Notes under the pieces: model-generated
Told to the model about the DNA's origin: nothing
The model's input: only the letters and a program-made list of their open reading frames with translations
Database searches by the model: none
In this document: one piece after another, positions 33,945 to 51,517 of the stretch
How positions within the stretch are numbered: the first letter of the stretch is position 1
How the letters are laid out: every line of letters starts with the position of its first letter
Made by a program: the position numbers and the translations under genes
Source: an uncultured Gammaproteobacteria bacterium
Lineage (GTDB): Bacteria > Patescibacteriota > Patescibacteriia > Magasanikbacterales > GWA2-37-8
Reading direction: 5' to 3'
DNA: 64,000 nt
NCBI GenBank assembly: GCA_964510885.1
Contig: CAZEDL010000001.1
Coordinates: 212,663 to 276,662 of the forward strand

Positions 33945-34017
33945 ACAATATTTAAATTGTTTGCATATATTACCATATAAATCTTAATATTGGTAGCGAT
34001 TTTAAAAAATAAAAAAA

Positions 34018-34350
34018 TCAAACGCTTTTTTTCTTACGTGGTTTCGGCGGTTTAAGATCCGCTGCGCAGGCTGCACATAAAGCATCAAAGCTTTCACCGT
34101 TTTCCAAAAATTCTGTACTCATAATATAAGCCGGTTTGGCACCCGGGTATGGCAAACCCGTCTTGTGCTTCGCACCAAGTATGCCAGTAGTCTGCGGCGT
34201 AATTTTAACAAACACCTGATTATCGCAGATCAAAGCTACGACTTTATTATTATAGTACAGTGCATATTCACCAAACATCGCTCGGATGCGGGCCACATGG
34301 CCATTAACTTGATCGAGCACGAATTCGGCAAAATCGCGGGTGGTGGCCAT
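34018..34350 (-). CDS. TfoX N-terminal domain protein
   Basis: RAMFGEYALYYNNKVVALICDNQVFVK matches TfoX_N core. Confidence 0.5.
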   Translation of the reverse strand: MATTRDFAEFVLDQVNGHVARIRAMFGEYALYYNNKVVALICDNQVFVKITPQTTGILGAKHKTGLPYPGAKPAYIMSTEFLENGESFDALCAACAADLKPPKPRKKKSV

Positions 34351-34406
34351 AGTTATAGTGATTTCAAAAATTATATACTACGACTGACATACCAGAATAA
34401 ATGCTG

Positions 34407-34865
34407 CTATTTTTTGCTCGAAACCGTTTGATCGATATGACCCACCTTCTTAGCGATCGCATGCACATCGGTGTGAATTTCCTCTAGCGCTTCGCTTTCC
34501 GAAACAATTTCGGCCTCGGTTTTTTCTACTAATTTTTTCTGTCCACGCAAACCAGAAATAATAATTTCATTACCAATAAAATTAGAAACAAATAAACCCG
34601 TAGACAGGGTAATTATAGTGCCGATAAGTAACGATACCGGCCCATCCCACCACGGAAAAACGGCTTGACCAAGAGCAGTCGGAGCGAAAAAACATTCCAT
34701 GATCAGATCTACGGTATTCCAAGCACCGCGCCAAAAAACCACTACCCCAAACCCGCCAATAAACGCATATACGATCGGCCGACGGCTGCACCAGCCACGA
34801 ACTTTATCTTCAAATTTATCACCCCAACGGTATATTTTTTTGAACATATTCGGTTGATTTATCAA
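34407..34865 (-). CDS. Hypothetical membrane protein
   Basis: 152 aa, 2-3 TM. Confidence 0.4.
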   Translation of the reverse strand: MINQPNMFKKIYRWGDKFEDKVRGWCSRRPIVYAFIGGFGVVVFWRGAWNTVDLIMECFFAPTALGQAVFPWWDGPVSLLIGTIITLSTGLFVSNFIGNEIIISGLRGQKKLVEKTEAEIVSESEALEEIHTDVHAIAKKVGHIDQTVSSKK

Positions 34866-35167
34866 ACTAGGATACAGAACTTATTTACTTACTATTTTTC
34901 GCATTTTATATTTAATGACCCCGTATACGCAGGAAGATTATACTAATCATTATAAAGATGCAACACAGACATTTATTAAGCGATAGGCTGAATACGTAGA
35001 GGGTATAGAATTATTTTTTGAATTAATCTGACAGCTGGTTTAATGATGTGCAGATAAACAATTAAGAAACTGTACTTTTCATGAATGAACTGAGATAAAT
35101 GTATCTTTTTTGATCTAATTTTTTGAAGTAAAAACTAAGACACCGGCATTAAAGCTGCTGTCTTAAA

Positions 35168-35184
35168 TGTAGCCCGTACGGGAA
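35168..35184. repeat. Partial (17-bp) third copy of the tRNA-Glu att core
   Basis: TGTAGCCCGTACGGGAA identical to first 17 nt of the 24-bp repeat; diverges after. Confidence 0.55.
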
Positions 35185-35342
35185 ATCTTGTGCGTCGTCG
35201 CTACGCTCCTCCTACACAAAAACCTTCGGGTTTTCGTGGGCTTTCCTCCCCAGGTAAAAAACTCCATTTCTTACCATCTTGCGTGCGATTCAGTGGATCA
35301 AAAAACAAATAAAATACTCCCTTATTAAGGGAGTATTTTATT

Positions 35343-35366
35343 TGTAGCCCGTACGGGAATCGCACC
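35343..35366. repeat. Left att direct repeat (24 bp) of integrative element
   Basis: TGTAGCCCGTACGGGAATCGCACC identical to 42063-42086. Confidence 0.7.
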
Positions 35367-35568
35367 AACTCAAGCAAATTCTGAATTTTCCTACGGTTGA
35401 GCAATTATACGCTGACGTTAGCTAAAAGTCTAATTCTCATTCGTTCTCAAGTATCCGCATCCGTACTCCCCTTTCATCACTTTTTGGCCACAGGGTGGAC
35501 ACAAACTTTTAAGATGTTCAACGGCAACACAGAGAAAGTGATATTGCGGGGAAACCCGTATAGAAAAT

Positions 35569-36228
35569 TTATGGTAGAGGAAGGTTCTTGTCCTTCTTTC
35601 CAAAAAGGACGTAAATAAAGGCTTTATAGTAAAAAAGTAAGCCTCCGGCCACTAATCCTACCCAAGTTAAAACAGAAAATAAAATTGTTTGTATATAAAA
35701 AATGTAATTTCTCTGATACTTAACTATGTCTTGATATTCACAATTATTTCGATCATCTTTATTGATAAGACAAACCAAACTTTTCTCCTTGATTGTATTG
35801 ATAACATAAGTTTTCAAAAACTCCCTTTCTTTTCCTTGGTTATCATAATAATTAGGAATAATTACAGGCAACACCGAATCAAGAGAACTCAAAATATCTT
35901 TATTGCAATAACTATCTTTAGAAAGACTATACTCCGAAAGCCACTTATAATTATTTGCTGGTTTATCAAGGCATCCTAGCTCACCTTTTGTAGCCAAAAA
36001 ATCAGGCAATACATTGGTGGAGCTATCTACACTCTTGGTATATTCATTAAGATTTGAAATAATCTTAGTATTTGAAGGTTTTAATTGTAATAAGAAATAG
36101 TACGAAATCGGTATTAGAACTATTAGTAAGGAAATAATAAGAAAGAAAACCACCTTAAATAGCCTGTGCCACCATTTAGAATTTAAGTTTAAGTCTGGGC
36201 GAAAAAAATTATTATATCTTTGCTTCAT
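35569..36228 (-). CDS. Hypothetical membrane protein (island cargo)
   Basis: 219 aa, TM near N-term and C-term. Confidence 0.4.
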   Translation of the reverse strand: MKQRYNNFFRPDLNLNSKWWHRLFKVVFFLIISLLIVLIPISYYFLLQLKPSNTKIISNLNEYTKSVDSSTNVLPDFLATKGELGCLDKPANNYKWLSEYSLSKDSYCNKDILSSLDSVLPVIIPNYYDNQGKEREFLKTYVINTIKEKSLVCLINKDDRNNCEYQDIVKYQRNYIFYIQTILFSVLTWVGLVAGGLLFYYKAFIYVLFGKKDKNLPLP

Positions 36229-36305
36229 AATATTAAAAAAATTAACGCCTCACCTTTTCACTTTCGTAAACTTGCTTAAAATATTTCCTAGTTTTCATGT
36301 TATTT

Positions 36306-36665
36306 TTATCTAAATTTTTCTACCTCATTATCATAATCCGACCTTGTATCAACCGCTTTTATTTCTTTTCCTTCTAAAATGTCCTTCAGTACAAAGGATG
36401 TATAGACTTTTTCCTTGCCATTAAAATCGGCATGTGTGACTCTGGCTAAACCTTCTAAACACGTATCCAGCTTTGTGCTGTAAAAAATTTCCAACAGAGA
36501 AAGGTTGTTATAGGGAGAATTTTCAGTGTTATACTTTTCGATATTTTGTTTTTCAGTAGAAATATAGTTTGAACATTCAAGTTTTTTCTGAAAACTAATA
36601 TCATTTTTTGCACAACCCGCACCTATCATTAGAAAAATGATCAAGAAAAAACCTATTTTTCTCAT
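36306..36665 (-). CDS. Hypothetical lipoprotein (island cargo)
   Basis: Signal peptide + lipobox IGAGC. Confidence 0.45.
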   Translation of the reverse strand: MRKIGFFLIIFLMIGAGCAKNDISFQKKLECSNYISTEKQNIEKYNTENSPYNNLSLLEIFYSTKLDTCLEGLARVTHADFNGKEKVYTSFVLKDILEGKEIKAVDTRSDYDNEVEKFR

Positions 36666-36679
36666 AAATTATTGTTAAT

Positions 36680-37288
36680 TTATCTAAAAGTACTAGTAAC
36701 GGTACTTGAACTACTCAGACCCGTGTCTGTATTAAGCACACTAGTAACAGGGGCTATTTTTTTAGAAGTCGGATGTAGAAAACTTAAAAGGCTTCCCCAA
36801 TTAAACACCACCGCAATAACCAGAACAGCAAGAAGAGTGAAAAAACCTACTATAAAAAAGCTGTTAATTTTTTTTGTAATGGCAGAAAAGGCAATTTTTG
36901 TTGTTGGTAATTGTGCTTTATAAAAAGCATACACTAAGACTAAAAATCCTAAGTAGCCTAAATATCTTTTTAAACTAGACATTTGTCCAAATGCGCTGAT
37001 AATAATATAACCAACCAAACTAACAAGCATTGTTGTAAAAGGAAGTTTTTCTTCAAGATGGGCTAATAAACTAGGGACGTATTGGATACCATAATTGTCA
37101 CCGCCACCCAGCCCTTTCCTACTAGTCCAGTCATCTGACGAAGTACCCCCACCGCTCTTAGTGCCACCCTCTTGATTAACTGAATTAGGTTGCCCAAAAC
37201 TACTGATATCCTCAAAATTATCAGTATCTATAGAAACTCCGGTTGGTTTTTCGTTCGTATTCCTAGAATCAACCGCTCCGTTATTCAT
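36680..37288 (-). CDS. Hypothetical membrane protein with Gly/Ser-rich N-terminal region (island cargo)
   Basis: 202 aa; GGTKSGGGTSSDD low-complexity then 3-4 TM. Confidence 0.4.
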   Translation of the reverse strand: MNNGAVDSRNTNEKPTGVSIDTDNFEDISSFGQPNSVNQEGGTKSGGGTSSDDWTSRKGLGGGDNYGIQYVPSLLAHLEEKLPFTTMLVSLVGYIIISAFGQMSSLKRYLGYLGFLVLVYAFYKAQLPTTKIAFSAITKKINSFFIVGFFTLLAVLVIAVVFNWGSLLSFLHPTSKKIAPVTSVLNTDTGLSSSSTVTSTFR

Positions 37289-38003
37289 AGAAATATGTCA
37301 AAAAACCATTGTGTATTTCTTCGATTGCATTCACATTTGATTTACACAGGTTTAGTAATTGATCCGGATCCAAGACCATCTCTTTATTTTGATAGAAATC
37401 AATGCTACAAAAAGTGCCACAGTCACGCTTGAAATTTTCCGGATAAATCTTTTTATTTTCAAAAAACCGAGTAAAAGCCTCTTCTGCAGAAACAGGGCCG
37501 GTTTGAAAATTATACTTACCTTCAGATCGTTCGCAATCATTAAAGGTATAACCAAAATCTAATATTTTTGAATTAGTATAAGTTTCAAATGAGGCATAAT
37601 TTTTAAACATTTTTTCTTTATACCTTGTTTTTATATTCTCAAGGTTATCTGCGCTTCTATAGTTCAAAACCAAGGACTTTGTGCCGACCCGTATTAAAGA
37701 CTTGATGGGGTATTTATCAAATTTTCTTAAAATTCTAAATAAATCATCAATTTTATTACGAAACTCGCCAAAATCAGGAGAAGCTTCAATTTGAAGACCA
37801 AAATTTTCTAAACTAAAAAAAAGAAACTCTGAAAAATCTTCAGTAGCAACATCCACTCGATCGTTTGCCATTCTTATTTTTGTAAACTCTGAATTTCTAG
37901 ATATTAAATACTCCGCCATCTCGCCTTTAAAATCTATGAAAGAAAATTTTCTATTCTTTAATCGAATTTCTAGAAGATGCCTAATTATTTTTGTATCCGA
38001 CAT
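37281..38003 (-). CDS. Hypothetical protein (island cargo)
   Basis: 240 aa soluble, no recognised motif. Confidence 0.4.
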   Translation of the reverse strand: MSDTKIIRHLLEIRLKNRKFSFIDFKGEMAEYLISRNSEFTKIRMANDRVDVATEDFSEFLFFSLENFGLQIEASPDFGEFRNKIDDLFRILRKFDKYPIKSLIRVGTKSLVLNYRSADNLENIKTRYKEKMFKNYASFETYTNSKILDFGYTFNDCERSEGKYNFQTGPVSAEEAFTRFFENKKIYPENFKRDCGTFCSIDFYQNKEMVLDPDQLLNLCKSNVNAIEEIHNGFLTYFYE

Positions 38004-38129
38004 AATAGTAAATTCTATTTTAGAATAGAAATTAAAGCCTTGAATTTTAGAAATTTAAAATTTGTGTATAGGCTAATTTTGCTATACTATAGCAGAAAAT
38101 CAATATTTTACAAGCAAAATCCTCCCACT

Positions 38130-39242
38130 ATGCCCTCCCCTAACCCTCAAGTCGTCACCGCCATAGATACAGGTAAAATGTTAGAAAGACTACATTCTTC
38201 AACACAGACAACCGAGCAGAATTTTCTTCCTACGTTATTTGACTATCTAGAGTATATAGTTAAGAATCCAAAAACTAAGGCTCTGCTTCAGGAATTAGAA
38301 AAATCCCGAACAGATGCCTATAGCAGCTACTTTGAGCTTAAATCGAAGTCAAAAAAAGAACTTGAGAAATCAAAAAAAATACTCTTAGGAGCAGTCGCTA
38401 AAAATAAAATACAGAATCCTCAGCTAAAAGAGCGTACTGAAAACTGGAAACGTTATGAAAAAGGTGAAATAAGTAGCAACGCACTTTATGAGCACCGATT
38501 AGAAAGCTTTCTAATCGATATCTTCGATATTCTTTTTAAAGAGGGGTGCGGATCACTAATTGAGCCTTTATTTCCCAAAAATAACTATGGAAATTTGATT
38601 TTTTCTCCCTCTTTAGCCTTGTTTAAGAGAGAAAGTGAAAGGATAGACGAATTAAGAGATATTGAAATGTGGCATTGTTGGTATTCATTAAAATTTGTAC
38701 CCGAAATATCTAAACAAACTTTTGGCGATATAATGCACTCTCAAGGCCATTTAACTCACGAAGAGATCGGCTATTATTTTGACGCCTTACGTTTTAGGCA
38801 AGAGGGGCGAAAAGAAAAATCCAAGGATTATGAAGAGGATTTGCCAAAATATAAGGGCTATTTGAATCGACTGCACAACTATCTTGTTCAAAGATTGGAC
38901 GAAAGTAAAACCATTCCACTAGAGCAACCAATGACCCACAAGCTCAACTTTTTTCCAGCAGACGGAACAGCTCAATACAGAGGATCCAGCTATATATTCG
39001 CCTCAGGAACCAAAGGGCATGAATTATTAAACTTCTTATTTAACTCAAAAAATACCCCTTTAGAATTGCGCTACTTTCAAGAGCGATGTAACGAGAAAAT
39101 CAGGATCGGAAGGAATAAATTTAAAACAGACAAAGATATTTTAGACACGGTTAACCATATTAAAAAAAGACTGAAAGTGAATAAGAGTGAATACTTTCCT
39201 ATTTTTAAAACCGAAAAATGCTTTATTTGGGAGGAAAAATAG
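38130..39242 (+). CDS. Hypothetical protein (island cargo)
   Basis: start set at ATG 38130 (track ORF starts earlier and overlaps the divergent gene); terminator at 39300-39328. Confidence 0.4.
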   Translation: MPSPNPQVVTAIDTGKMLERLHSSTQTTEQNFLPTLFDYLEYIVKNPKTKALLQELEKSRTDAYSSYFELKSKSKKELEKSKKILLGAVAKNKIQNPQLKERTENWKRYEKGEISSNALYEHRLESFLIDIFDILFKEGCGSLIEPLFPKNNYGNLIFSPSLALFKRESERIDELRDIEMWHCWYSLKFVPEISKQTFGDIMHSQGHLTHEEIGYYFDALRFRQEGRKEKSKDYEEDLPKYKGYLNRLHNYLVQRLDESKTIPLEQPMTHKLNFFPADGTAQYRGSSYIFASGTKGHELLNFLFNSKNTPLELRYFQERCNEKIRIGRNKFKTDKDILDTVNHIKKRLKVNKSEYFPIFKTEKCFIWEEK

Positions 39243-39375
39243 CATTCACTCGGTTCACTTCATTCATCCACATAGAGAAGCAAAGAAAAACCCCATAGAA
39301 TCGTAGTATCAGACACTACGATTTTTTATTTAATACTTGGTTGCAAATCGCTGTTTTTCTTATCTGGCTTTTCCT

Positions 39376-39429
39376 GGGAGGGTTAGGCCGGAAGGTAAGC
39401 AGCGACTTGTTACCAATAACCCTCCCATG
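39376..39429 (+). promoter_or_regulatory. RBS-sequestering hairpin (GGGAGGGTTA…TAACCCTCCC) directly before start codon
   Basis: Perfect 10-bp inverted repeat, 31-nt spacer, 3' arm ends at ATG 39427. Confidence 0.45.
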
Positions 39430-40695
39430 GATACCGTCCGTCTAAAATTTAGCCATTACCTACCCAAAACTTCCTTTTTTAAGGATAAAGTTTTAAGTAA
39501 GGTTTTAGCCTTAGAATCAGGCGCAGGTAAGCGTTATATCTTCACCAACAACGAATGGCGTAAGCAGCGCCAAGCGCAAGGTTTGTATACTCCTAAATAC
39601 TGGATTGAGGAGGATGTTGTAATACCCTCAAATACTTTCTTCTATATCGAGTGCTCTCTGCCCAAGCTGCACTGGGGACAAAATATAACCGAACCAACAG
39701 ATACCGATTTAGAGCCTATAGTCGCCTCTCTAAGAGCTTTTTTGAGAGAAATTGAGGTATATGTCAGTACGGGTCAAATCCTCAACGCTACCCCTACTCT
39801 TGTAGCAGTAGGAAAGAATATTGATCTCACCCGTTTCTGCTCCGTCGACTTAACTCTAAAAGCACTTAGCCCTTTTGACTTCAAGCCAAAAACTAAGCAT
39901 CGGTTTATTGATTTTTTGGATTGTGAGCATGGGGGCAGGCAGATAATTTTTTCCAAAAAAGAAGAAACGCTTAAGCTCTACAACAAACTATCTGAAGTAG
40001 CCAATAATGCTATTACCGATAAAGAAAAAGCTGTAAGGCAGGCCGTTGAGAAGCAGCGTTACCGCTCAGAAGCTATCTATGTCAACGAAATGCTTAGAAC
40101 AGAGCTAACACTTAAAACAAGACGAAAGATAGAGAATAGATTTAAAAAGTACCTGCCTACTGGCCAAGAGGTGAATTTTCAAAATCTCTTCAAAAAATCA
40201 ATTTGGGATAAATTGCTAGCCGAAGAAATAGCGACCGTATATATGCACCCACTACGGCATTTTGTTTTTCTAGCACAAGAAAATAAGCCAATTATTGAGG
40301 CTTTCTTGGACAAAAACCACAAGCATATCGAGACGAAAGATACGGTAATGGGAATTATTGGCTCTTTACAGGAATATGGCCTAGCTCAAACCCGCCAGAG
40401 ATACTTGGCAAAATACGACAGCAGACAGACTTGGTACAACTATCTAAAACGGTTTAAAAAAATTGATGAAGCATACGATTTTAGTTCGCTGGCTAACTCT
40501 GATAATTACAAAATTTACTGCCATATTCTTGGACAATTTGGCTTAGATACTGCCGCCCAAGCTAGTTTTGATTTCGATACATTGTCTAAAAAACTAGACA
40601 GCGAGCAGTGTAATACTAATTGTGATAAACTAACAGCGACCAAGGCGGCTAGTCCGTCTTCTGTGTTGCTCTCTGACAATTTATATGGATGCTGA
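39427..40695 (+). CDS. Hypothetical protein; possible rolling-circle replication initiator (weak Rep_trans-like N-terminus)
   Basis: N-terminal DTVRLKFS resembles iDwLrfTf start of replication-initiation-factor family; otherwise unassigned. Confidence 0.3.
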   Translation: MDTVRLKFSHYLPKTSFFKDKVLSKVLALESGAGKRYIFTNNEWRKQRQAQGLYTPKYWIEEDVVIPSNTFFYIECSLPKLHWGQNITEPTDTDLEPIVASLRAFLREIEVYVSTGQILNATPTLVAVGKNIDLTRFCSVDLTLKALSPFDFKPKTKHRFIDFLDCEHGGRQIIFSKKEETLKLYNKLSEVANNAITDKEKAVRQAVEKQRYRSEAIYVNEMLRTELTLKTRRKIENRFKKYLPTGQEVNFQNLFKKSIWDKLLAEEIATVYMHPLRHFVFLAQENKPIIEAFLDKNHKHIETKDTVMGIIGSLQEYGLAQTRQRYLAKYDSRQTWYNYLKRFKKIDEAYDFSSLANSDNYKIYCHILGQFGLDTAAQASFDFDTLSKKLDSEQCNTNCDKLTATKAASPSSVLLSDNLYGC

Positions 40696-42062: not shown

Positions 42063-42086
42063 TGTAGCCCGTACGGGAATCGCACC
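42063..42086. repeat. Right att direct repeat (24 bp) overlapping 3' end of tRNA-Glu
   Basis: Identical to 35343-35366. Confidence 0.7.
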
Positions 42087-42136
42087 CGTCTTTGAGCCGT
42101 GAGAGGGCCCTGTCCTAACTGATAGACGAACGGGCC
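42065..42136 (-). tRNA. tRNA-Glu (anticodon CTC)
   Basis: Hand-folded: acceptor GGCCCGT/ACGGGCT (one G-U), U8, D-arm TTCGTCTA… like bacterial tRNA-Glu, anticodon loop CTCTCAC, 4-nt variable loop, T-arm ACGGG-TGCGATT-CCCGT (unusual G at position 55), discriminator A. Confidence 0.65.
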
Positions 42137-47376: not shown

Positions 47377-47853
47377 CTAGCGCTCTACAAGCGGTGGAGT
47401 GAATATAAACGAAAAGAACATCCCGGGGACACTTGCCCTCCCCACTACATCACCGCCGAAGCTAGCAATAAGGGCCGGACACAGCCACGATTGACTACAG
47501 GTAGCCACTTCTAGCCCGGCGGCCACCACCACGCTGTCGTTTGGCGTGCCGTCATATGGCGTGCTGGCAGAGAGATAGGGCCCGATTAGCAGCGGGCCGA
47601 CCGGAAATAGCCAGTCGACTGACAGACTAAGGCTACTACTGACCGGGCACACCTCGAATGTGATCGAGGCGTACTGCCTTTTTTTAAGGCCTTTCTGCAA
47701 AGCTAGGCCAAGGCACGGCTCGATAGTGACCGCAGGATTTGGTTCTAGCGGCACGGTCATCGAGAGATCGGCGACGAAGAGGAGTGACTCTTCGGCAGCG
47801 GCTGTGAGCGTACTTGCCAATAAACAAAAAATGACGAGGGTCGTTCTCATCGT
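47377..47853 (-). CDS. Hypothetical secreted protein (high-GC islet)
   Basis: Signal peptide MTMRTTLVIFCLLASTLTAAAEE; no recognised domain. Confidence 0.4.
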   Translation of the reverse strand, partial: TMRTTLVIFCLLASTLTAAAEESLLFVADLSMTVPLEPNPAVTIEPCLGLALQKGLKKRQYASITFEVCPVSSSLSLSVDWLFPVGPLLIGPYLSASTPYDGTPNDSVVVAAGLEVATCSQSWLCPALIASFGGDVVGRASVPGMFFSFIFTPPLVER

Positions 47854-48015
47854 CATGTCACGGACCTCCAAACGATTGGTTAGACGTTTGAGGTGATACT
47901 AGCAAGTTTCTATGGATTCGTATACAGAGGCCGCTGTGCAGCCGCTTTGTACGAACTGCCAGGCCAGCCCGCGCGAATCGGAGACTCGCGGGGCGGCCTG
48001 GCTGGTTCTAGTGGT

Positions 48016-48582
48016 TCAATGGGTGGGATCCGGGATCGGCGCGCTGAGTAGCATGCCGATCCCGTGGCCAGGGTGGCCGTGGTGATCGGGGTGGAGCAGG
48101 TGCCCCACGATTACGGACACGCTGGTCCGTTTCGTGGGCTTCACCCGCAGGGTTGGGCCCGCCACATTCCCGCCAAAGCCGGGCTTTTCGCCGCTGAGCG
48201 CGACGATTAAGCCATCTCCGAGCCCGAGCGCCCAGCTGGGGCTGAGGGCGCGCAAACCGGCGATGGTCAGGATGAGCTGGAACTGCGGCTGGGTGTTCAT
48301 ACCCAGCTCGATCTCCCAGAGGAGCATCCACGCTCCCTGGCCACACTTGCCACCGATCCCGACGCCGCCGTCCCCAATGTACTCGGGCCGCAGCCTTGGC
48401 TCACCAAGGTGCAGCTCCTTTTCAAAAGGAGCAGCGAAGGACAGGCTCAATACCGGGTGCGGTCGCCCGCACCGGAAGCCTGCCGGCTGGTGGGGGCCGG
48501 CTTCATCGTCAGCACGAACCTCGCTCCCCACCAGGAGCAAGGCAATTACAAGTAGGGCGAAAATGCCCTTGTGACCCCTCAT
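48016..48582 (-). CDS. Hypothetical secreted protein with His-rich C-terminus (high-GC islet)
   Basis: Signal peptide MRGHKGIFALLVIALLLVGSEVRA; C-term HLLHPDHHGHPGHG. Confidence 0.4.
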   Translation of the reverse strand: MRGHKGIFALLVIALLLVGSEVRADDEAGPHQPAGFRCGRPHPVLSLSFAAPFEKELHLGEPRLRPEYIGDGGVGIGGKCGQGAWMLLWEIELGMNTQPQFQLILTIAGLRALSPSWALGLGDGLIVALSGEKPGFGGNVAGPTLRVKPTKRTSVSVIVGHLLHPDHHGHPGHGIGMLLSAPIPDPTH

Positions 48583-48633
48583 CTAGATACCTCCGAAAGA
48601 AGATGGTGCCACTTCGAACAGAATTGTTCGCAG

Positions 48634-48680
48634 TTGGCATTTAGAAAATTCACATTTTGTATGCGCTTTCTAAATGCCAA
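48634..48680. promoter_or_regulatory. 14-bp perfect inverted repeat TTGGCATTTAGAAA-N19-TTTCTAAATGCCAA
   Basis: Located ~50 bp upstream (minus strand) of secreted-protein gene start. Confidence 0.4.
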
Positions 48681-48950
48681 TTAATTACGAACTCTGTTTT
48701 TAAACCACTAGAATAGTGAGAAGACTAAGAGAACAGAGAATCCCATTTGGTGGGATTAGCCGCGACAAGCAAGCTCCCTTACACAGAAAAAAGCCGAACA
48801 TTTCGATATTTTTCTCTGTAAAAGTCGCTCACTAGGCGGGGACTCTGTACCATCTTACTTCTCGTTGTAAAGAACGATTTCTTAAATTCTGTAAAAAATT
48901 TAAGAAATCACTATAGCATAAAAATAGGAATTTGTCAATGTATTTTTTCT

Positions 48951-48980
48951 GGGGATAAAAAAATCCCCTGGCAGGGATTT
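48951..48980 (-). terminator. Rho-independent terminator (minus strand) downstream of 39-aa ORF
   Basis: minus strand AAATCCCTGCCAGGGGATTTTTTTATCCCC. Confidence 0.55.
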
Positions 48981-49079
48981 AGCTTACTTAAGCCTCTTTT
49001 AAGGCCTAAACAAGCCCTACAAGAGGCCGCGCATCTGAGTTAAAGATGCGCGAATAGATGCGCGGCCCTCCTGCCGTGG

Positions 49080-49199
49080 TTAGTGAGCGGGTGGTGATCC
49101 GATGCCGGTCACACCGGCATAGATGACCCAGGCATAAAATGCTACACAGAGCGCGAGAAGAGCTGCCATGCCAACGCGGCGAAAGATATAGAGAGCCAT
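49080..49199 (-). CDS. Small hydrophobic protein (39 aa), type-I-toxin-like arrangement
   Basis: GGAGGTAAGTC-ATG strong SD; MALYIFRRVGMAALLALCVAFYAWVIYAGVTGIGSPPAH single TM; hairpins at both ends. Confidence 0.35.
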   Translation of the reverse strand: MALYIFRRVGMAALLALCVAFYAWVIYAGVTGIGSPPAH

Positions 49200-49275
49200 G
49201 ACTTACCTCCCGAAGGTGGCAAGTCTAATCTTAAAAAGATTTTGCTTGCCACCGCCGAGAGGATTTGTAAAAGAG

Positions 49276-49980
49276 CTAAAAAATTTCAAAATGAATATGC
49301 TTCATCGGCACTTTTTGGACCAGCAGAGCTGACCGGACATCTTTAATCATCTCCAAACTACCACACACATAATATTCGGCAAGCTCGGGGAGCGTGGGCA
49401 GATGAGCGGTGACGCGACCGATCCTACCCTGCCATTTGGCTGGTTCGTGCGCGCCGGAGAGGCAGATTGAATAATCAAAGGATGGCAGATCTTTTTTGAG
49501 GGCAGCCAAGCGATCATGCCAAAAGACATCATGCTCGGTACGTACCCCAAATAATACGGTTTGACTCTCCCCTGCTTTAAATTCAGTTGGCTGATCGGCC
49601 AAAATACTCAGAATCGGGGTGATGCCGGTGCCCGTAGCCACGAATACTTTGGTTGGGAGTGCCGCCGGAGTGACCACAAAAAAGCCCTGCGCAGCAGAGA
49701 AAATAACTTCACTGTTCAGACTCAAAACGTTGAAATACTGTGAAGCTGCCCCACCAGGAAGAATTTTGATGCAAAACTCGAGGTAGTCGGCATTGGGGGC
49801 TGAGGCAATCGAATAACTGCGCCAAACCGGTTCGGTGCTAGTTGGGATTTTGAACTGCACGAATTGACCGGCTTTAAACTCAAATCCAGCCGGACGCGAT
49901 ACCCGAAATATTAAGACATCGCTCGTGACGAAGTGGCGTTCGGTGAGGACTCCGGTATATTCGACTCGGACGGGTGACAT
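49276..49980 (-). CDS. Ferredoxin-NADP reductase-like FAD/NAD(P)-binding oxidoreductase
   Basis: RSYSIAS (FAD RxYS) and GTGITP (NAD) motifs. Confidence 0.65.
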   Translation of the reverse strand: MSPVRVEYTGVLTERHFVTSDVLIFRVSRPAGFEFKAGQFVQFKIPTSTEPVWRSYSIASAPNADYLEFCIKILPGGAASQYFNVLSLNSEVIFSAAQGFFVVTPAALPTKVFVATGTGITPILSILADQPTEFKAGESQTVLFGVRTEHDVFWHDRLAALKKDLPSFDYSICLSGAHEPAKWQGRIGRVTAHLPTLPELAEYYVCGSLEMIKDVRSALLVQKVPMKHIHFEIF

Positions 49981-50104
49981 AGGTTGACAAAAAGGCTAAA
50001 AATAGAGTAAAATAGGGCAGATTTTGAATTCTAAGCTATCTGGTTAGTTGGCTAGCATACTATACTTTTAGTGATTTAGCAATCAGGCCAGAATTTTTCC
50101 GCGC

Positions 50105-51517
50105 ATGCCAAAAGTAGTCAAAAAAAATATACCGAAACTCGACCGCTCGGCCTATGATACGGCTAACCCGGAAGCGCATCGCTTTAAGAGTGCACCAGGC
50201 TTATCCGAAGAGTTGGTGCGCGAGATTTCGGCGCAAAAAAATGAACCGGAGTGGATGCTTAAAAAACGCCTCCAGGGTTTGGCGTTGTTCCGCGAGAAGC
50301 CGTTACCAGCGTGGGGGCCTGATTTATCGAAATTGGATTTAGAAAAAATTGTCTATTTTGTTCGGCCGGATAGCGACAGCGCCACCACATGGGACAAAGT
50401 ACCCGAGAATATTAAAAAAACGTTTGACCGGTTGGGAATTCCGGAGGCTGAGAAAAAGGCTTTGGCTGGAGTCGGAGCGCAGTATGATTCAGATATTGTC
50501 TATCATAAATTAAAAAAGCAATGGGAGGACAAAGGCGTGGTATTTGAAAATATGGATGTGGCGGTGCATAAATATCCAGAGCTGGTGAAAAAATATTTCA
50601 TGATACAATGCGTGCCGGTATCTGACCATAAATTCACTATGCTGCATGCGGCGGTATGGAGCGGCGGCACCTTTATTTATGTCCCGAAGGGCGTGACGGT
50701 TGATTTGCCGCTGCAAGCGTACTTCCGCATGAATGTGCGCTCGGGCGGGCAATTTGAACATACGCTGATTATCGCCGATGAAGGCAGTACGATTCATTAT
50801 ATTGAAGGATGCTCAGCGCCACGCTACGGGCAAAGTTCATTGCATGCCGGGTGTGTTGAGATTTTTGTCCATGCCGGGGCACGCGTGCGCTATTCATCGA
50901 TTGAGAATTGGTCAAAAGATACCTACAATTTAAATACGAAACGGGCGCTGGTGGATGAAGATGGGGTGATTGAATGGGTGAATGGCAATATGGGTAGCGG
51001 GGTCACCATGCTGTACCCGAGTTCGATTTTGCGCGGGCGCGGGGCACGTTCGGATAGCTTGGGGGTGGCGTTTGCTGGGCCGGGGCAGAACCAAGATACG
51101 GGAGCTAAAGCAATTCACACGGCACCACACACCAGCTCGAATATTGTATCAAAATCTATTTCGGTGAATGGCGGTATTAATACCTTCCGCGGGCTAATCC
51201 ATATCACGCCGGCAGCAAACAATGTGAATGCGGCGATGGTGTGTGATGCGCTTTTGATTGGCAAAAACGCGGTGGCGAATACGATTCCGGAATTAAAAAT
51301 TAAGAATGAAGATGTCACGGTGTCGCACGAAGCGCGCGTGGGCAAGATTGGTGACGAAGAAATTTTTTATTTGCAGTCGCGGGGGTTATCCGAACAAGAA
51401 GCGATTCGGCTGGTGGTATCGGGATTTATTGAGCCGATTGTGAAGGCGTTGCCGATTGAGTATGCGCTTGAATTAAATAAATTGATTGAGCTTGAGATGG
51501 AGGGGGCGGTGGGATAA
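50105..51517 (+). CDS. sufB: Fe-S cluster assembly protein SufB
   Basis: 470 aa with SufB N- and C-terminal conserved regions. Confidence 0.85.
   Translation: MPKVVKKNIPKLDRSAYDTANPEAHRFKSAPGLSEELVREISAQKNEPEWMLKKRLQGLALFREKPLPAWGPDLSKLDLEKIVYFVRPDSDSATTWDKVPENIKKTFDRLGIPEAEKKALAGVGAQYDSDIVYHKLKKQWEDKGVVFENMDVAVHKYPELVKKYFMIQCVPVSDHKFTMLHAAVWSGGTFIYVPKGVTVDLPLQAYFRMNVRSGGQFEHTLIIADEGSTIHYIEGCSAPRYGQSSLHAGCVEIFVHAGARVRYSSIENWSKDTYNLNTKRALVDEDGVIEWVNGNMGSGVTMLYPSSILRGRGARSDSLGVAFAGPGQNQDTGAKAIHTAPHTSSNIVSKSISVNGGINTFRGLIHITPAANNVNAAMVCDALLIGKNAVANTIPELKIKNEDVTVSHEARVGKIGDEEIFYLQSRGLSEQEAIRLVVSGFIEPIVKALPIEYALELNKLIELEMEGAVG

What the first reader, a model, noticed from the sequence alone, without database searches (positions are those of the whole stretch)
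48600..49276. 39-aa hydrophobic mini-protein with structured 5' leader, strong SD and dedicated terminator (type-I-toxin-like)
On the minus strand there is a 17-bp near-perfect hairpin (GGTGGCAAG…CTTGCCACC with nested AATCTT/AAGATT). It is followed by GGAGGTAAGTC-ATG and a 39-codon ORF (MALYIFRRVGMAALLALCVAFYAWVIYAGVTGIGSPPAH; 49199-49080), which the 60-aa ORF-track cutoff misses. A 12-bp GC hairpin (GGCCGCGCATCT/AGATGCGCGGCC) comes next, then a hairpin plus U-run terminator. Further downstream a 14-bp inverted repeat sits in a 590-bp non-coding tract. This layout matches type I toxin-antitoxin loci or small-membrane-protein regulators, and an antisense RNA could be encoded opposite.
Basis: partly seen in the sequence, partly recalled or inferred. 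Interest (0 to 1): 0.5.

Follow-up and report, generated by a model that had tools for sequence, protein, structure and literature searches.

The report
Gated mini-membrane ORF beside conserved leader RNA
The region holds two separate things: a probably real 39-codon membrane-peptide gene at the tail of a flavin-reductase operon, whose ribosome-binding site is locked in a hairpin, and next to it a strong promoter driving a conserved, folded, undescribed leader RNA; it is not a toxin-antitoxin locus by any test run here.

Summary
The reading needs changing. (1) The 39-aa ORF (49199..49080, minus) sits 76 nt after an FNR-like flavin reductase gene, with no promoter of its own. Its hairpin is longer than described and pairs the Shine-Dalgarno GGGAGG with an upstream CCUCUC (pairing probability about 1.0). 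One relative (L001) has the same layout: the same hairpin architecture with compensatory changes, the same SD-ATG block, and a 31-aa single-helix ORF. Six other groups of related loci lack the ORF. No antisense promoter, no second copy and no known toxin family were found, so a type I toxin-antitoxin system is not supported. The terminator ends the operon; it is not dedicated to the ORF. (2) The 'non-coding tract' is a second transcription unit. It has an 11/12 sigma-70 promoter (48938..48910), a hairpin at the transcript's 5' end, and a 162-nt multi-helix RNA (48877..48716). This RNA is conserved in six distinct relatives, with 31 of 51 pairs showing double changes, and matches nothing in Rfam. 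It precedes a fast-evolving signal-peptide protein. The organism is Patescibacteria-like. Interest is moderate and rests mainly on the leader RNA.

The parts
49276..49980 (-). FNR-like flavin reductase gene (234 aa). It is the upstream gene of the operon and is divergent from sufB (50105..51517, +).
   Evidence: Pfam FAD_binding_6 and NAD_binding_1. NCBIfam matches only below family cut-offs. The divergent arrangement next to SufB is conserved in L001, L081-L083, L084, L090, L097 and L100.
49206..49262 (-). Long hairpin whose base pairs CCUCUCGG (49262-49255) with UCGGGAGG (49213-49206). It therefore buries the Shine-Dalgarno sequence GGGAGG (49211-49206) of the mini-ORF.
   Evidence: Stability -33.2 kcal/mol, z -5.4. 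SD pairing probability 1.0. The same architecture occurs in L001 (-35.1 kcal/mol, z -4.8). The two-sequence consensus has 19 pairs: 4 with double changes, 4 with one-sided compatible changes and none broken. Inverted repeat I1.
49080..49199 (-). 39-codon ORF encoding a predicted single-pass hydrophobic peptide.
   Evidence: ORF list. The best 19-residue Kyte-Doolittle window scores 2.15. Shuffles of its own bases give an ORF of at least 30 aa with such a segment in 0.66% of trials, and 0.16% for the 31-aa ORF of L001. The block GGAGGT.A.TCATG is conserved in L001. An identical 39-aa protein is already in the public protein library, and no relative was detectable.
49021..49073 (-). GC-rich hairpin directly after the mini-ORF stop codon. 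Its core is a perfect 12-bp repeat at 49067-49056 and 49036-49025.
   Evidence: -28.1 kcal/mol, z -4.3. Repeat I4. L001 has a weaker GC hairpin at the same place (z -1.4).
48981..49016 (-). 16-bp hairpin between the GC hairpin and the terminator.
   Evidence: Fold of 48955-49025. No counterpart is seen in L001.
48954..48980 (-). Intrinsic terminator that ends the FNR-like/mini-ORF transcription unit: an 8-bp stem with a UGCC loop, then UUUUUUU.
   Evidence: Terminator scan. A hairpin plus U-run sits at the same place in L001. In L093 it follows the FNR-like stop codon directly.
48910..48938 (-). Strong sigma-70-type promoter, TTGACA-17-TATAGT, with a TG extension. It is the start of a second transcription unit.
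   Evidence: 11 of 12 consensus positions. It is conserved in position and sequence in L001, L093, L084, L097 and L100.
48876..48909 (-). Perfect 13-bp stem-loop at the predicted 5' end of the transcript.
   Evidence: Repeat I3. In all six homologues a hairpin of unrelated sequence begins within about 0-2 nt (up to about 6 nt in the window itself) of the position 7 nt after the -10 box. The transcription start is inferred, not measured.
48716..48877 (-). Conserved 162-nt structured RNA core. Its elements in order are: a single-stranded UCGUUCUUUACAA, outer stems P1 and P2, a long irregular hairpin flanked by the invariant GUGAGCG and GUAAGGGAGCU, and a short variable hairpin.
   Evidence: Covariance model R1 gives one hit per locus in six distinct sequences, E 1e-45 to 2e-7. 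90.4% of cells are paired, against 41-51% in slid controls, and 31 of 51 pairs show double changes. There is no Rfam match. No ORF is conserved across it; the 33-aa ORF at 48700..48801 has no ATG in L001.
48634..48680 (-).
   Evidence: Repeat I2. It is present in L001, with two central mismatches, and in L093, with a changed sequence. It is absent from the short-form leaders of L084, L097 and L100. No U-run follows it in the window.
48016..48594 (-). SD GGAGG (48594-48590) and a 188-aa protein gene (48582..48016). The protein has a signal peptide and is the gene served by the leader.
   Evidence: ORF list. Counterparts of 176-194 aa follow the RNA in all five full loci and share 23-32% identity. 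No Pfam or NCBIfam family matches. The word-based homology search returned only the protein itself. The single-sequence AlphaFold model is unusable, pLDDT 34.

Best explanation
The interval contains the end of one transcription unit and the start of another.

Unit A is the FNR-like flavin reductase gene plus a lineage-restricted 39-codon ORF, transcribed together from the promoter region shared with the divergent sufB. The ORF encodes a single-pass membrane peptide. Its ribosome-binding site is held in the base of a very stable hairpin, so translation is expected to be low or conditional until something opens the stem. A GC hairpin and an intrinsic terminator then end the operon.

Unit B starts 16 nt after the terminator's U-run (27 nt after its stem), at a near-consensus promoter. 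Its transcript begins with a stem-loop at the 5' end, an arrangement that in other bacteria protects mRNAs from 5'-end-dependent decay. It continues into a conserved 162-nt multi-helix RNA domain and runs without an intervening terminator into the gene for a secreted or surface protein. The most likely role of the RNA domain is cis-regulation of that gene: control of stability and/or translation by a bound factor or ligand.

Shown here: the sequence elements, the predicted structures, their conservation and covariation, and the gene order. Inferred: co-transcription, the transcription start, translation of the mini-ORF, membrane insertion, and the regulatory role of the RNA.
For: Unit A:
- No promoter-like site lies between the FNR-like gene and the ORF.
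- The SD is buried, with probability about 1.0, in both the window and L001.
- The hairpin is conserved by structure, with 4 double changes and no broken pair.
- The SD-ATG block is identical in spacing in both.
- Both ORFs carry a 19-residue segment with hydropathy of at least 2.1. This is rare in shuffles of their own bases: 0.0066 and 0.0016.
- A canonical terminator follows.

Unit B:
- The promoter matches 11 of 12 positions and is conserved in six loci.
- A 5' hairpin is conserved in position but not in sequence.
- The covariance model finds exactly one copy per locus, always between the promoter and the signal-peptide gene.
- Covariation is strong.
- Core identity among the three closest sequences is 82%, while the downstream proteins share only 23-32%.
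- In the short-form leaders the core ends about 10-40 nt before the start codon.
Against: - The mini-ORF is found in only two genomes. The two peptides are not significantly similar by sequence (tblastn E = 13), so their relatedness rests on position, the SD block and composition.
- No expression data exist.
- A -33 kcal/mol hairpin over the SD could equally mean the ORF is rarely or never translated.
- For the RNA, no consistent alternative pairing with the downstream SD was found across the six sequences, so there is no visible expression platform.
- Only six sequences from one narrow clade are available, and the pair counts come from an alignment fitted to the model.
- High RNA conservation next to a fast-evolving ORF is also what an independent RNA gene would show.
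Confidence: 0.55

Rival explanations
1. Type I toxin-antitoxin locus. The 39-aa peptide is a membrane toxin whose mRNA is kept untranslatable by the SD hairpin, and an antisense or divergently encoded small RNA acts as the antitoxin.
For: A small hydrophobic single-helix peptide. The SD is fully sequestered in a stable structure that is conserved in L001, as in many type I toxin mRNAs (general knowledge). The ORF is patchily distributed among relatives, which suits an accessory element.
Against: - No promoter-like site on the opposite strand at 9/12 or better; the best relaxed match is 8/12 and is not shared with L001.
- No promoter for the toxin mRNA itself. The ORF sits 76 nt after the FNR-like stop codon in the same orientation.
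- No Pfam or NCBIfam toxin family matches.
- Single copy, with no repeats of the region in the window.
- The sequence between the ORF and the terminator is not conserved between the window and L001, so no conserved antisense gene is visible there.
Confidence: 0.07
2. The mini-ORF is not a gene. The hairpins after the FNR-like stop codon are 3'-UTR structures (mRNA 3'-end stabilisers or processing sites), and the ORF with its SD-like arm is incidental.
For: The ORF is absent from most relatives, where the FNR-like gene is followed directly by a terminator or by other ORFs. Peptide similarity between the two carriers is at noise level. The SD is permanently paired in the predicted ensemble. The whole tail is unusually structured, z -6.6.
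Against: The block GGAGGT.A.TCATG is retained with exact spacing in L001, while the hairpin interior has diverged. Both genomes keep an open frame of at least 31 codons encoding a transmembrane-like segment, with joint chance of roughly 1e-5 from shuffles. A gene caller has already called the identical 39-aa product in a public record.
Confidence: 0.2
3. The conserved 162-nt RNA is an independent, abundant non-coding RNA gene, processed from a transcript that also carries the downstream ORF, as E. coli 6S RNA is processed from the ssrS-ygfA transcript. It would not be a cis-regulatory leader.
For: - Near-consensus promoter.
- The RNA is far better conserved than the protein that follows.
- If the weakly supported helix 3 is not real (77.8% of cells paired), the shape becomes a closing stem, an internal bubble with a small 3' hairpin, and a long terminal stem. 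That loosely recalls 6S RNA (general knowledge).
Against: - No match to 6S or any other Rfam family, even at E up to 10 on a 226-nt query, nor in five homologous loci.
- No terminator follows the core.
- In three of the six loci the core ends about 10-40 nt before the start codon of the same gene family. This is the geometry of a leader.
Confidence: 0.15

Closest known systems
Type I toxin mRNAs (hok/sok, tisB/istR-1, ibs/sib, zor/orz, aapA/isoA)
   Same: The product is a hydrophobic single-helix peptide of under 60 aa. The ribosome-binding site is buried in a stable 5' structure, so the primary transcript is translationally inert.
   Different: No antisense or divergent RNA gene, no own promoter and no family match were found. 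The ORF is the last cistron of a housekeeping-type operon and is single copy. Toxicity was not tested.
Operon-encoded small membrane subunits (CydX in cydABX, KdpF in kdpFABC, AcrZ-type peptides)
   Same: A 30-40-aa single-pass peptide encoded in the same operon as, and immediately next to, an enzyme gene. Distribution among relatives is patchy.
   Different: The partner here is a soluble-type FNR-like reductase, not a membrane complex. The SD is strongly occluded, which is not a feature of those genes as far as I know. There is no sequence similarity.
E. coli ompA 5' UTR and similar stabilising leaders
   Same: A strong promoter, a stem-loop at the very 5' end of the transcript, a long structured untranslated leader, and an exported protein downstream.
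   Different: This leader carries an additional multi-helix domain with invariant junction nucleotides and covariation. The organism is Patescibacteria-like rather than enterobacterial. No small-RNA or Hfq site is known here.
Riboswitch-type cis-regulatory leaders
   Same: A compact multi-helix domain of about 160 nt in a 5' UTR. It is much better conserved than the downstream gene, with invariant nucleotides concentrated at helix junctions. In short forms it lies directly before the ribosome-binding site.
   Different: No ligand is known and no conserved expression platform was found. It matches no Rfam family. It is known from only six sequences and is always upstream of one orphan gene family.
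6S RNA (ssrS)
   Same: Strong promoter, size class, co-transcription with a downstream ORF, and possibly a stem-bubble-stem outline.
   Different: No hit to the Rfam 6S models. The predicted branch point and short hairpin differ from the canonical rod. RNA polymerase binding was not tested.

Membership tests
Type I toxin-antitoxin system | Small hydrophobic toxin peptide (under about 60 aa, one transmembrane helix) | tested here: met
   39 aa; the best 19-residue hydropathy window scores 2.15.
Type I toxin-antitoxin system | Antitoxin RNA gene, with its own promoter, overlapping or adjacent to the toxin gene | tested here: not met
   No + strand promoter-like site at 9/12 or better in 48000-50200 apart from the sufB promoter. 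The relaxed scan's best match is 8/12 and is not shared with L001. This is sequence-based only; no transcript data exist.
Type I toxin-antitoxin system | Toxin mRNA with its own promoter and a long leader | tested here: not met
   The ORF starts 76 nt after the FNR-like stop codon, and this gap is filled by the hairpin. No credible sense promoter lies in the FNR-like 3' half.
Type I toxin-antitoxin system | Translation blocked by an mRNA structure over the SD | tested here: met
   SD pairing probability 1.0 in the window and 0.96-1.0 in L001. The hairpin is conserved.
Type I toxin-antitoxin system | Toxicity of the peptide when expressed | not testable with these tools
   This needs an expression experiment.
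Known small-toxin or small-protein families (Pfam, NCBIfam) | Profile match | tested here: not met
   No family at E up to 0.01 (Pfam) or 0.1 (NCBIfam). phmmer against 1.84 billion representative proteins returned only the identical sequence.
Intrinsic (Rho-independent) terminator | GC-containing stem-loop followed directly by a U-run, at the end of a transcription unit | tested here: met
   Stem 48980-48961 with 8 pairs, then UUUUUUU. Analogous sites occur in L001 and L093.
Any described RNA family (Rfam 15), including 6S RNA and metal or metabolite riboswitches | Covariance-model match to the leader RNA | tested here: not met
   Nothing at gathering score. E-value scans of 1.1 kb and of 226 nt gave only hairpin-type noise. 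The leaders of five homologous loci gave none.
Riboswitch (as a functional class) | Conserved structured aptamer domain in a 5' UTR, supported by covariation | tested here: met
   Six sequences; 90.4% of cells paired, 31 of 51 pairs with double changes, slid controls 41-51%. Caveat: the alignment is fitted to the model.
Riboswitch (as a functional class) | Ligand binding, and an alternative structure controlling the terminator or SD | tested here: inconclusive
   Folds of leader plus start region give no common pairing partner for the downstream SD. Ligand binding cannot be tested here.

The most novel reading that the evidence does not exclude
The 162-nt RNA at 48877..48716 is a previously undescribed ligand- or protein-responsive regulatory RNA class, confined to a Patescibacteria-like lineage. 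It would control a secreted protein whose mature N-terminus is rich in His-Pro, which hints at a metal-related signal. Separately, the neighbouring mini-ORF would be a translationally gated membrane peptide released only when its SD hairpin is opened.
Probability: 0.25. Interest if true: 0.6.

Novelty: new member of a known kind. Interest (0 to 1): 0.4.

Why it matters
Regulatory RNAs and small proteins are almost uncharted in Patescibacteria (CPR), whose tiny genomes are assumed to carry little regulation. This region offers two concrete, testable cases side by side. The first is a small membrane-peptide gene with a built-in translational lock. The second is a well-folded, covarying leader RNA with no described relative, placed in front of an orphan exported protein. 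If the RNA senses a ligand or protein, it would be a new regulatory RNA class from a lineage that cannot be cultured alone. If not, it is still a clean example of a leader that stabilises an mRNA. The work also removes a tempting but unsupported toxin-antitoxin annotation.

Tried and rejected
1. The first metagenome pattern scan used GTAASGGGAGC, which has one base too many for the window-type sequence; one search exposed the error. It could match only L084-type RNAs and found nothing. The corrected pattern gave two hits, both inside unrelated sequence and so chance matches.
2. The viral-contig scan lost its trailing element and returned more than 120 loose hits. Model R1 found no true match in the 80 loci listed.
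3. The search for homologous proteins cannot take queries under 40 aa. The exhaustive phmmer search found only the peptide itself, which says little for so short a peptide.
4. The 188-aa downstream protein gave nothing: no relatives by word-based search, no Pfam hit even at E up to 5 for it or five homologues, and an unusable single-sequence AlphaFold model with pLDDT 34. I first took it for an outer-membrane protein. I dropped that label once TypA placed the organism near Patescibacteria.
5. 6S RNA idea: no Rfam support and nothing in the literature.
6. The motif TCTTT(T)ACAA occurs just 5' of both the SD hairpin and the leader core. Its count in the window is 3, against 2.3 expected, so the resemblance is not statistically meaningful. 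Readings of it as a -35 box found no matching -10.
7. I looked for a protein-coding explanation of the leader's conservation. Frames differ between loci, 1-2-nt indels occur, and the window's 33-aa ORF lacks its ATG in L001.
8. I considered whether a ribosome terminating on the FNR-like gene could open the hairpin. The stem starts 13 nt after the stop codon in both genomes, probably just beyond the reach of a terminating ribosome. This is general knowledge, not tested here.
Full report
**Observation**

- The FNR-like gene ends with TAG at 49278-49276.
- Thirteen nucleotides later a long inverted repeat begins, with arms 49262-49236 and 49232-49206.
- ATG at 49199 opens a 39-codon ORF that ends at 49080.
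- A perfect 12-bp GC inverted repeat lies at 49067-49056 and 49036-49025.
- A 16-bp hairpin lies at 49016-48981.
- A terminator stem at 48980-48961 is followed by seven U.
- The perfect 14-bp inverted repeat lies at 48680-48667 and 48647-48634.

These structures exceed chance. The leader hairpin folds at -33.2 kcal/mol (z -5.4), the GC hairpin has z -4.3, and the whole 331-nt tail has z -6.6.

**Context and organism**

The upstream gene is a 234-aa protein with FAD_binding_6 and NAD_binding_1 domains. It falls below every NCBIfam equivalog cut-off. It is transcribed divergently from sufB (50105..51517). Downstream lie a 188-aa and a 164-aa ORF, both with signal peptides and no family assignment, and then typA.

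Named relatives of TypA at 72-75% identity are all Patescibacteria: Magasanikbacteria and the Parcubacteria group. The closest FNR-like relatives outside the immediate clade are also Magasanikbacteria. The window therefore comes from a Patescibacteria-like organism. The 'Gammaproteobacteria' title of the syntenic MAG contig L001 is probably a mislabel.

**The mini-ORF**

Its base pairs CCUCUCGG with UCGGGAGG, so the SD GGGAGG is double-stranded with probability 1.0 in the ensemble.

The syntenic contig L001 (FNR-like protein 56% identical) has the same layout.
- The stop codon and hairpin are again separated by 13 nt.
- Its hairpin has a base that pairs CUUCCU with AGGAGG (-35.1 kcal/mol, z -4.8) and an interior of different sequence.
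- The block GGAGGT.A.TCATG is identical in spacing.
- It carries a 31-codon ORF, MEDLKAALFILGVPYSIAFYIFAIYMAFQGP.
- A GC hairpin and a terminator follow.

A two-sequence consensus fold gives 19 pairs: 4 with changes on both sides, 4 with one-sided compatible changes and none broken. Both peptides contain a 19-residue segment with mean hydropathy of at least 2.1. In shuffles of each ORF's own bases, an open frame of at least 30 codons with such a segment appears in 0.66% and 0.16% of trials. The two peptides are not significantly similar by sequence (tblastn E = 13). The case for a real, related gene therefore rests on position, the conserved SD-ATG block, the open frame and the hydrophobic character. 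An identical 39-aa product is already present in the public protein library, and no relative reaches E 0.001 among 1.84 billion representative proteins.

**Distribution of the mini-ORF**

Six other groups of related loci lack the mini-ORF.
- L093: the FNR-like stop codon is followed directly by a terminator.
- L084 and L097: a hydrophilic 102-aa or 72-aa ORF occupies the slot.
- L081: a 301-aa ORF follows.
- L090, L094 and L100: nothing comparable is present.

The interval between the FNR-like gene and the next promoter is thus a variable slot, and the hydrophobic mini-ORF is one lineage-restricted occupant.

**Is it a type I toxin-antitoxin locus?**

Two features fit: a small hydrophobic peptide and an occluded SD. 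The defining partner does not appear.
- There is no promoter-like site on the opposite strand at the tool's threshold.
- The best match in a relaxed scan is 8/12 and is not conserved in L001.
- There is no separate promoter for the ORF. It lies 76 nt behind the FNR-like gene, and the hairpin fills that gap.
- The sequence between the ORF and the terminator is not conserved between the two carriers.
- There is no toxin-family match and no second copy in the window.

I therefore treat the toxin-antitoxin reading as a low-probability rival. The terminator is simply the operon terminator. What opens the hairpin is unknown. The stem begins 13 nt after the stop codon in both genomes, which is probably just outside the reach of a terminating ribosome (general knowledge, not tested). 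Simple translational coupling is therefore doubtful.

**The 'non-coding tract'**

Sixteen nucleotides after the terminator's U-run (27 nt after its stem) lies TTGACA-17-TATAGT with a TG extension, matching 11 of 12 consensus positions. This promoter and the sequence after it are conserved in L001, L093, L084 (L085 is the same), L097 (L098 the same) and L100 (L101 and L102 the same).

In all six distinct sequences a hairpin begins within about 0-2 nt (up to about 6 nt in the window itself) of the position 7 nt after the -10 box. The hairpins share no sequence. The transcription start itself is inferred.

A conserved core of 156-168 nt follows; in the window it is 162 nt, at 48877..48716. Its elements are:
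- a single-stranded UCGUUCUUUACAA;
- a purine-rich/pyrimidine-rich outer stem;
- a second stem, ACAGRG/CUCUGU;
- a long irregular hairpin flanked by the invariant GUGAGCG and GUAAGGGAGCU;
- a short hairpin whose sequence changes completely between loci.

A covariance model built from the three closest sequences finds the three more distant ones at E 6e-11 to 2e-7, exactly once per locus and nowhere else in the window or in 18 other loci. On the resulting alignment 90.4% of cells are standard pairs, against 41-51% when partners are slid. Thirty-one of 51 pairs show changes on both sides, and no shuffle reaches the observed covariation score. The caveats are that the alignment is fitted to the model and that there are only six sequences.

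No reading frame is conserved across the core. No Rfam family matches in the window or in five homologous loci, even with permissive thresholds. Full-text searches found no description of such an element. Scans of JGI metagenomes and of viral contigs yielded only chance matches, so the RNA is so far known only from this narrow clade.

**What the RNA precedes**

In every full locus the RNA is followed, with no terminator, by a 176-194-aa protein that has a signal peptide. These proteins each have two cysteines and a high glycine content, and in four of five the mature N-terminus is rich in His-Pro. They are only 23-32% identical to one another. They match no family, and no usable structure could be predicted.

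In the short-form leaders the core ends about 10-40 nt before the start codon.

This geometry favours a cis-acting leader. The 5' stem-loop is likely to stabilise the mRNA, as in the E. coli ompA leader (general knowledge). The conserved multi-helix domain looks like a binding module for a ligand or protein. I could not identify a common alternative pairing with the downstream SD, so the mechanism of any switch is open. An independent RNA processed from the same transcript, as 6S RNA is from ssrS-ygfA, remains a rival, because the RNA is so much better conserved than the ORF.

**Verdict**

The mini-ORF is most likely a real, lineage-restricted small membrane-protein gene with a translational lock. 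It is not a demonstrable toxin-antitoxin system. The more notable element in the interval is the neighbouring conserved, covarying, undescribed leader RNA of a Patescibacteria-like organism. Overall interest is moderate (0.4).

Noticed in passing
window 49263-49275 and 48866-48877; L001 4706-4718 and 5079-5089: A similar single-stranded motif, UCUUU(U)ACAA, lies immediately 5' of both large structured domains: the SD hairpin of the mini-ORF and the leader core. This holds in both the window and L001. The motif count in the window is not above chance (3 against 2.3 expected), so it may be coincidence, a shared protein site or an RNase site.
   Followed up: partly
L084 4040-4078; L097 3330-3361: In these relatives the -35 box of the leader promoter sits in the loop of the upstream gene's terminator hairpin (AAAGGCC-TTGACAA-AAGGCCTTTTTT, then GTGCTATACT). 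This is an unusually compact overlap of a terminator and a promoter.
   Followed up: no
L001 (CAZXIF010000040.1), record title: The contig is titled 'uncultured Gammaproteobacteria bacterium'. However, it is fully syntenic with the window, whose TypA and FNR-like proteins are closest to Patescibacteria (Magasanikbacteria). The label is probably a taxonomic mislabel.
   Followed up: partly
L081 151-2778 (also L082, L083): SufB in this groundwater relative is 875 aa and is interrupted by an intein with a LAGLIDADG endonuclease domain, according to precomputed Pfam hits.
   Followed up: no
window 48016-48582 and homologues in L084, L097 and L100: The exported proteins behind the leader RNA have mature N-termini rich in His-Pro (for example EVHPHDELHPH and NEPHHQEHPR) and exactly two cysteines. 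The window protein also has a His-rich C-terminus. This may indicate metal binding. L001 lacks the His-rich N-terminus.
   Followed up: partly
window 47377-47871 (-): A second orphan ORF (164 aa) with a signal peptide lies between the 188-aa gene and typA. It aligns weakly (23%) with the 188-aa family. No copy of the leader RNA precedes it.
   Followed up: partly
window 34000-40000: A low-GC stretch (0.32-0.38, against about 0.46 elsewhere) that may be an acquired island.
   Followed up: no
L086-L092 (Patescibacteria-type loci): In more distant relatives the FNR-like gene sits next to an Rrf2-family regulator and a cysteine desulfurase instead of SufB. The reductase is therefore consistently linked to Fe-S cluster assembly genes.
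   Followed up: no
window 42064-42136 (-): ARAGORN calls a tRNA-Glu (anticodon CUC) here, but the Rfam tRNA model did not report it at gathering score in the whole-window scan.
   Followed up: no
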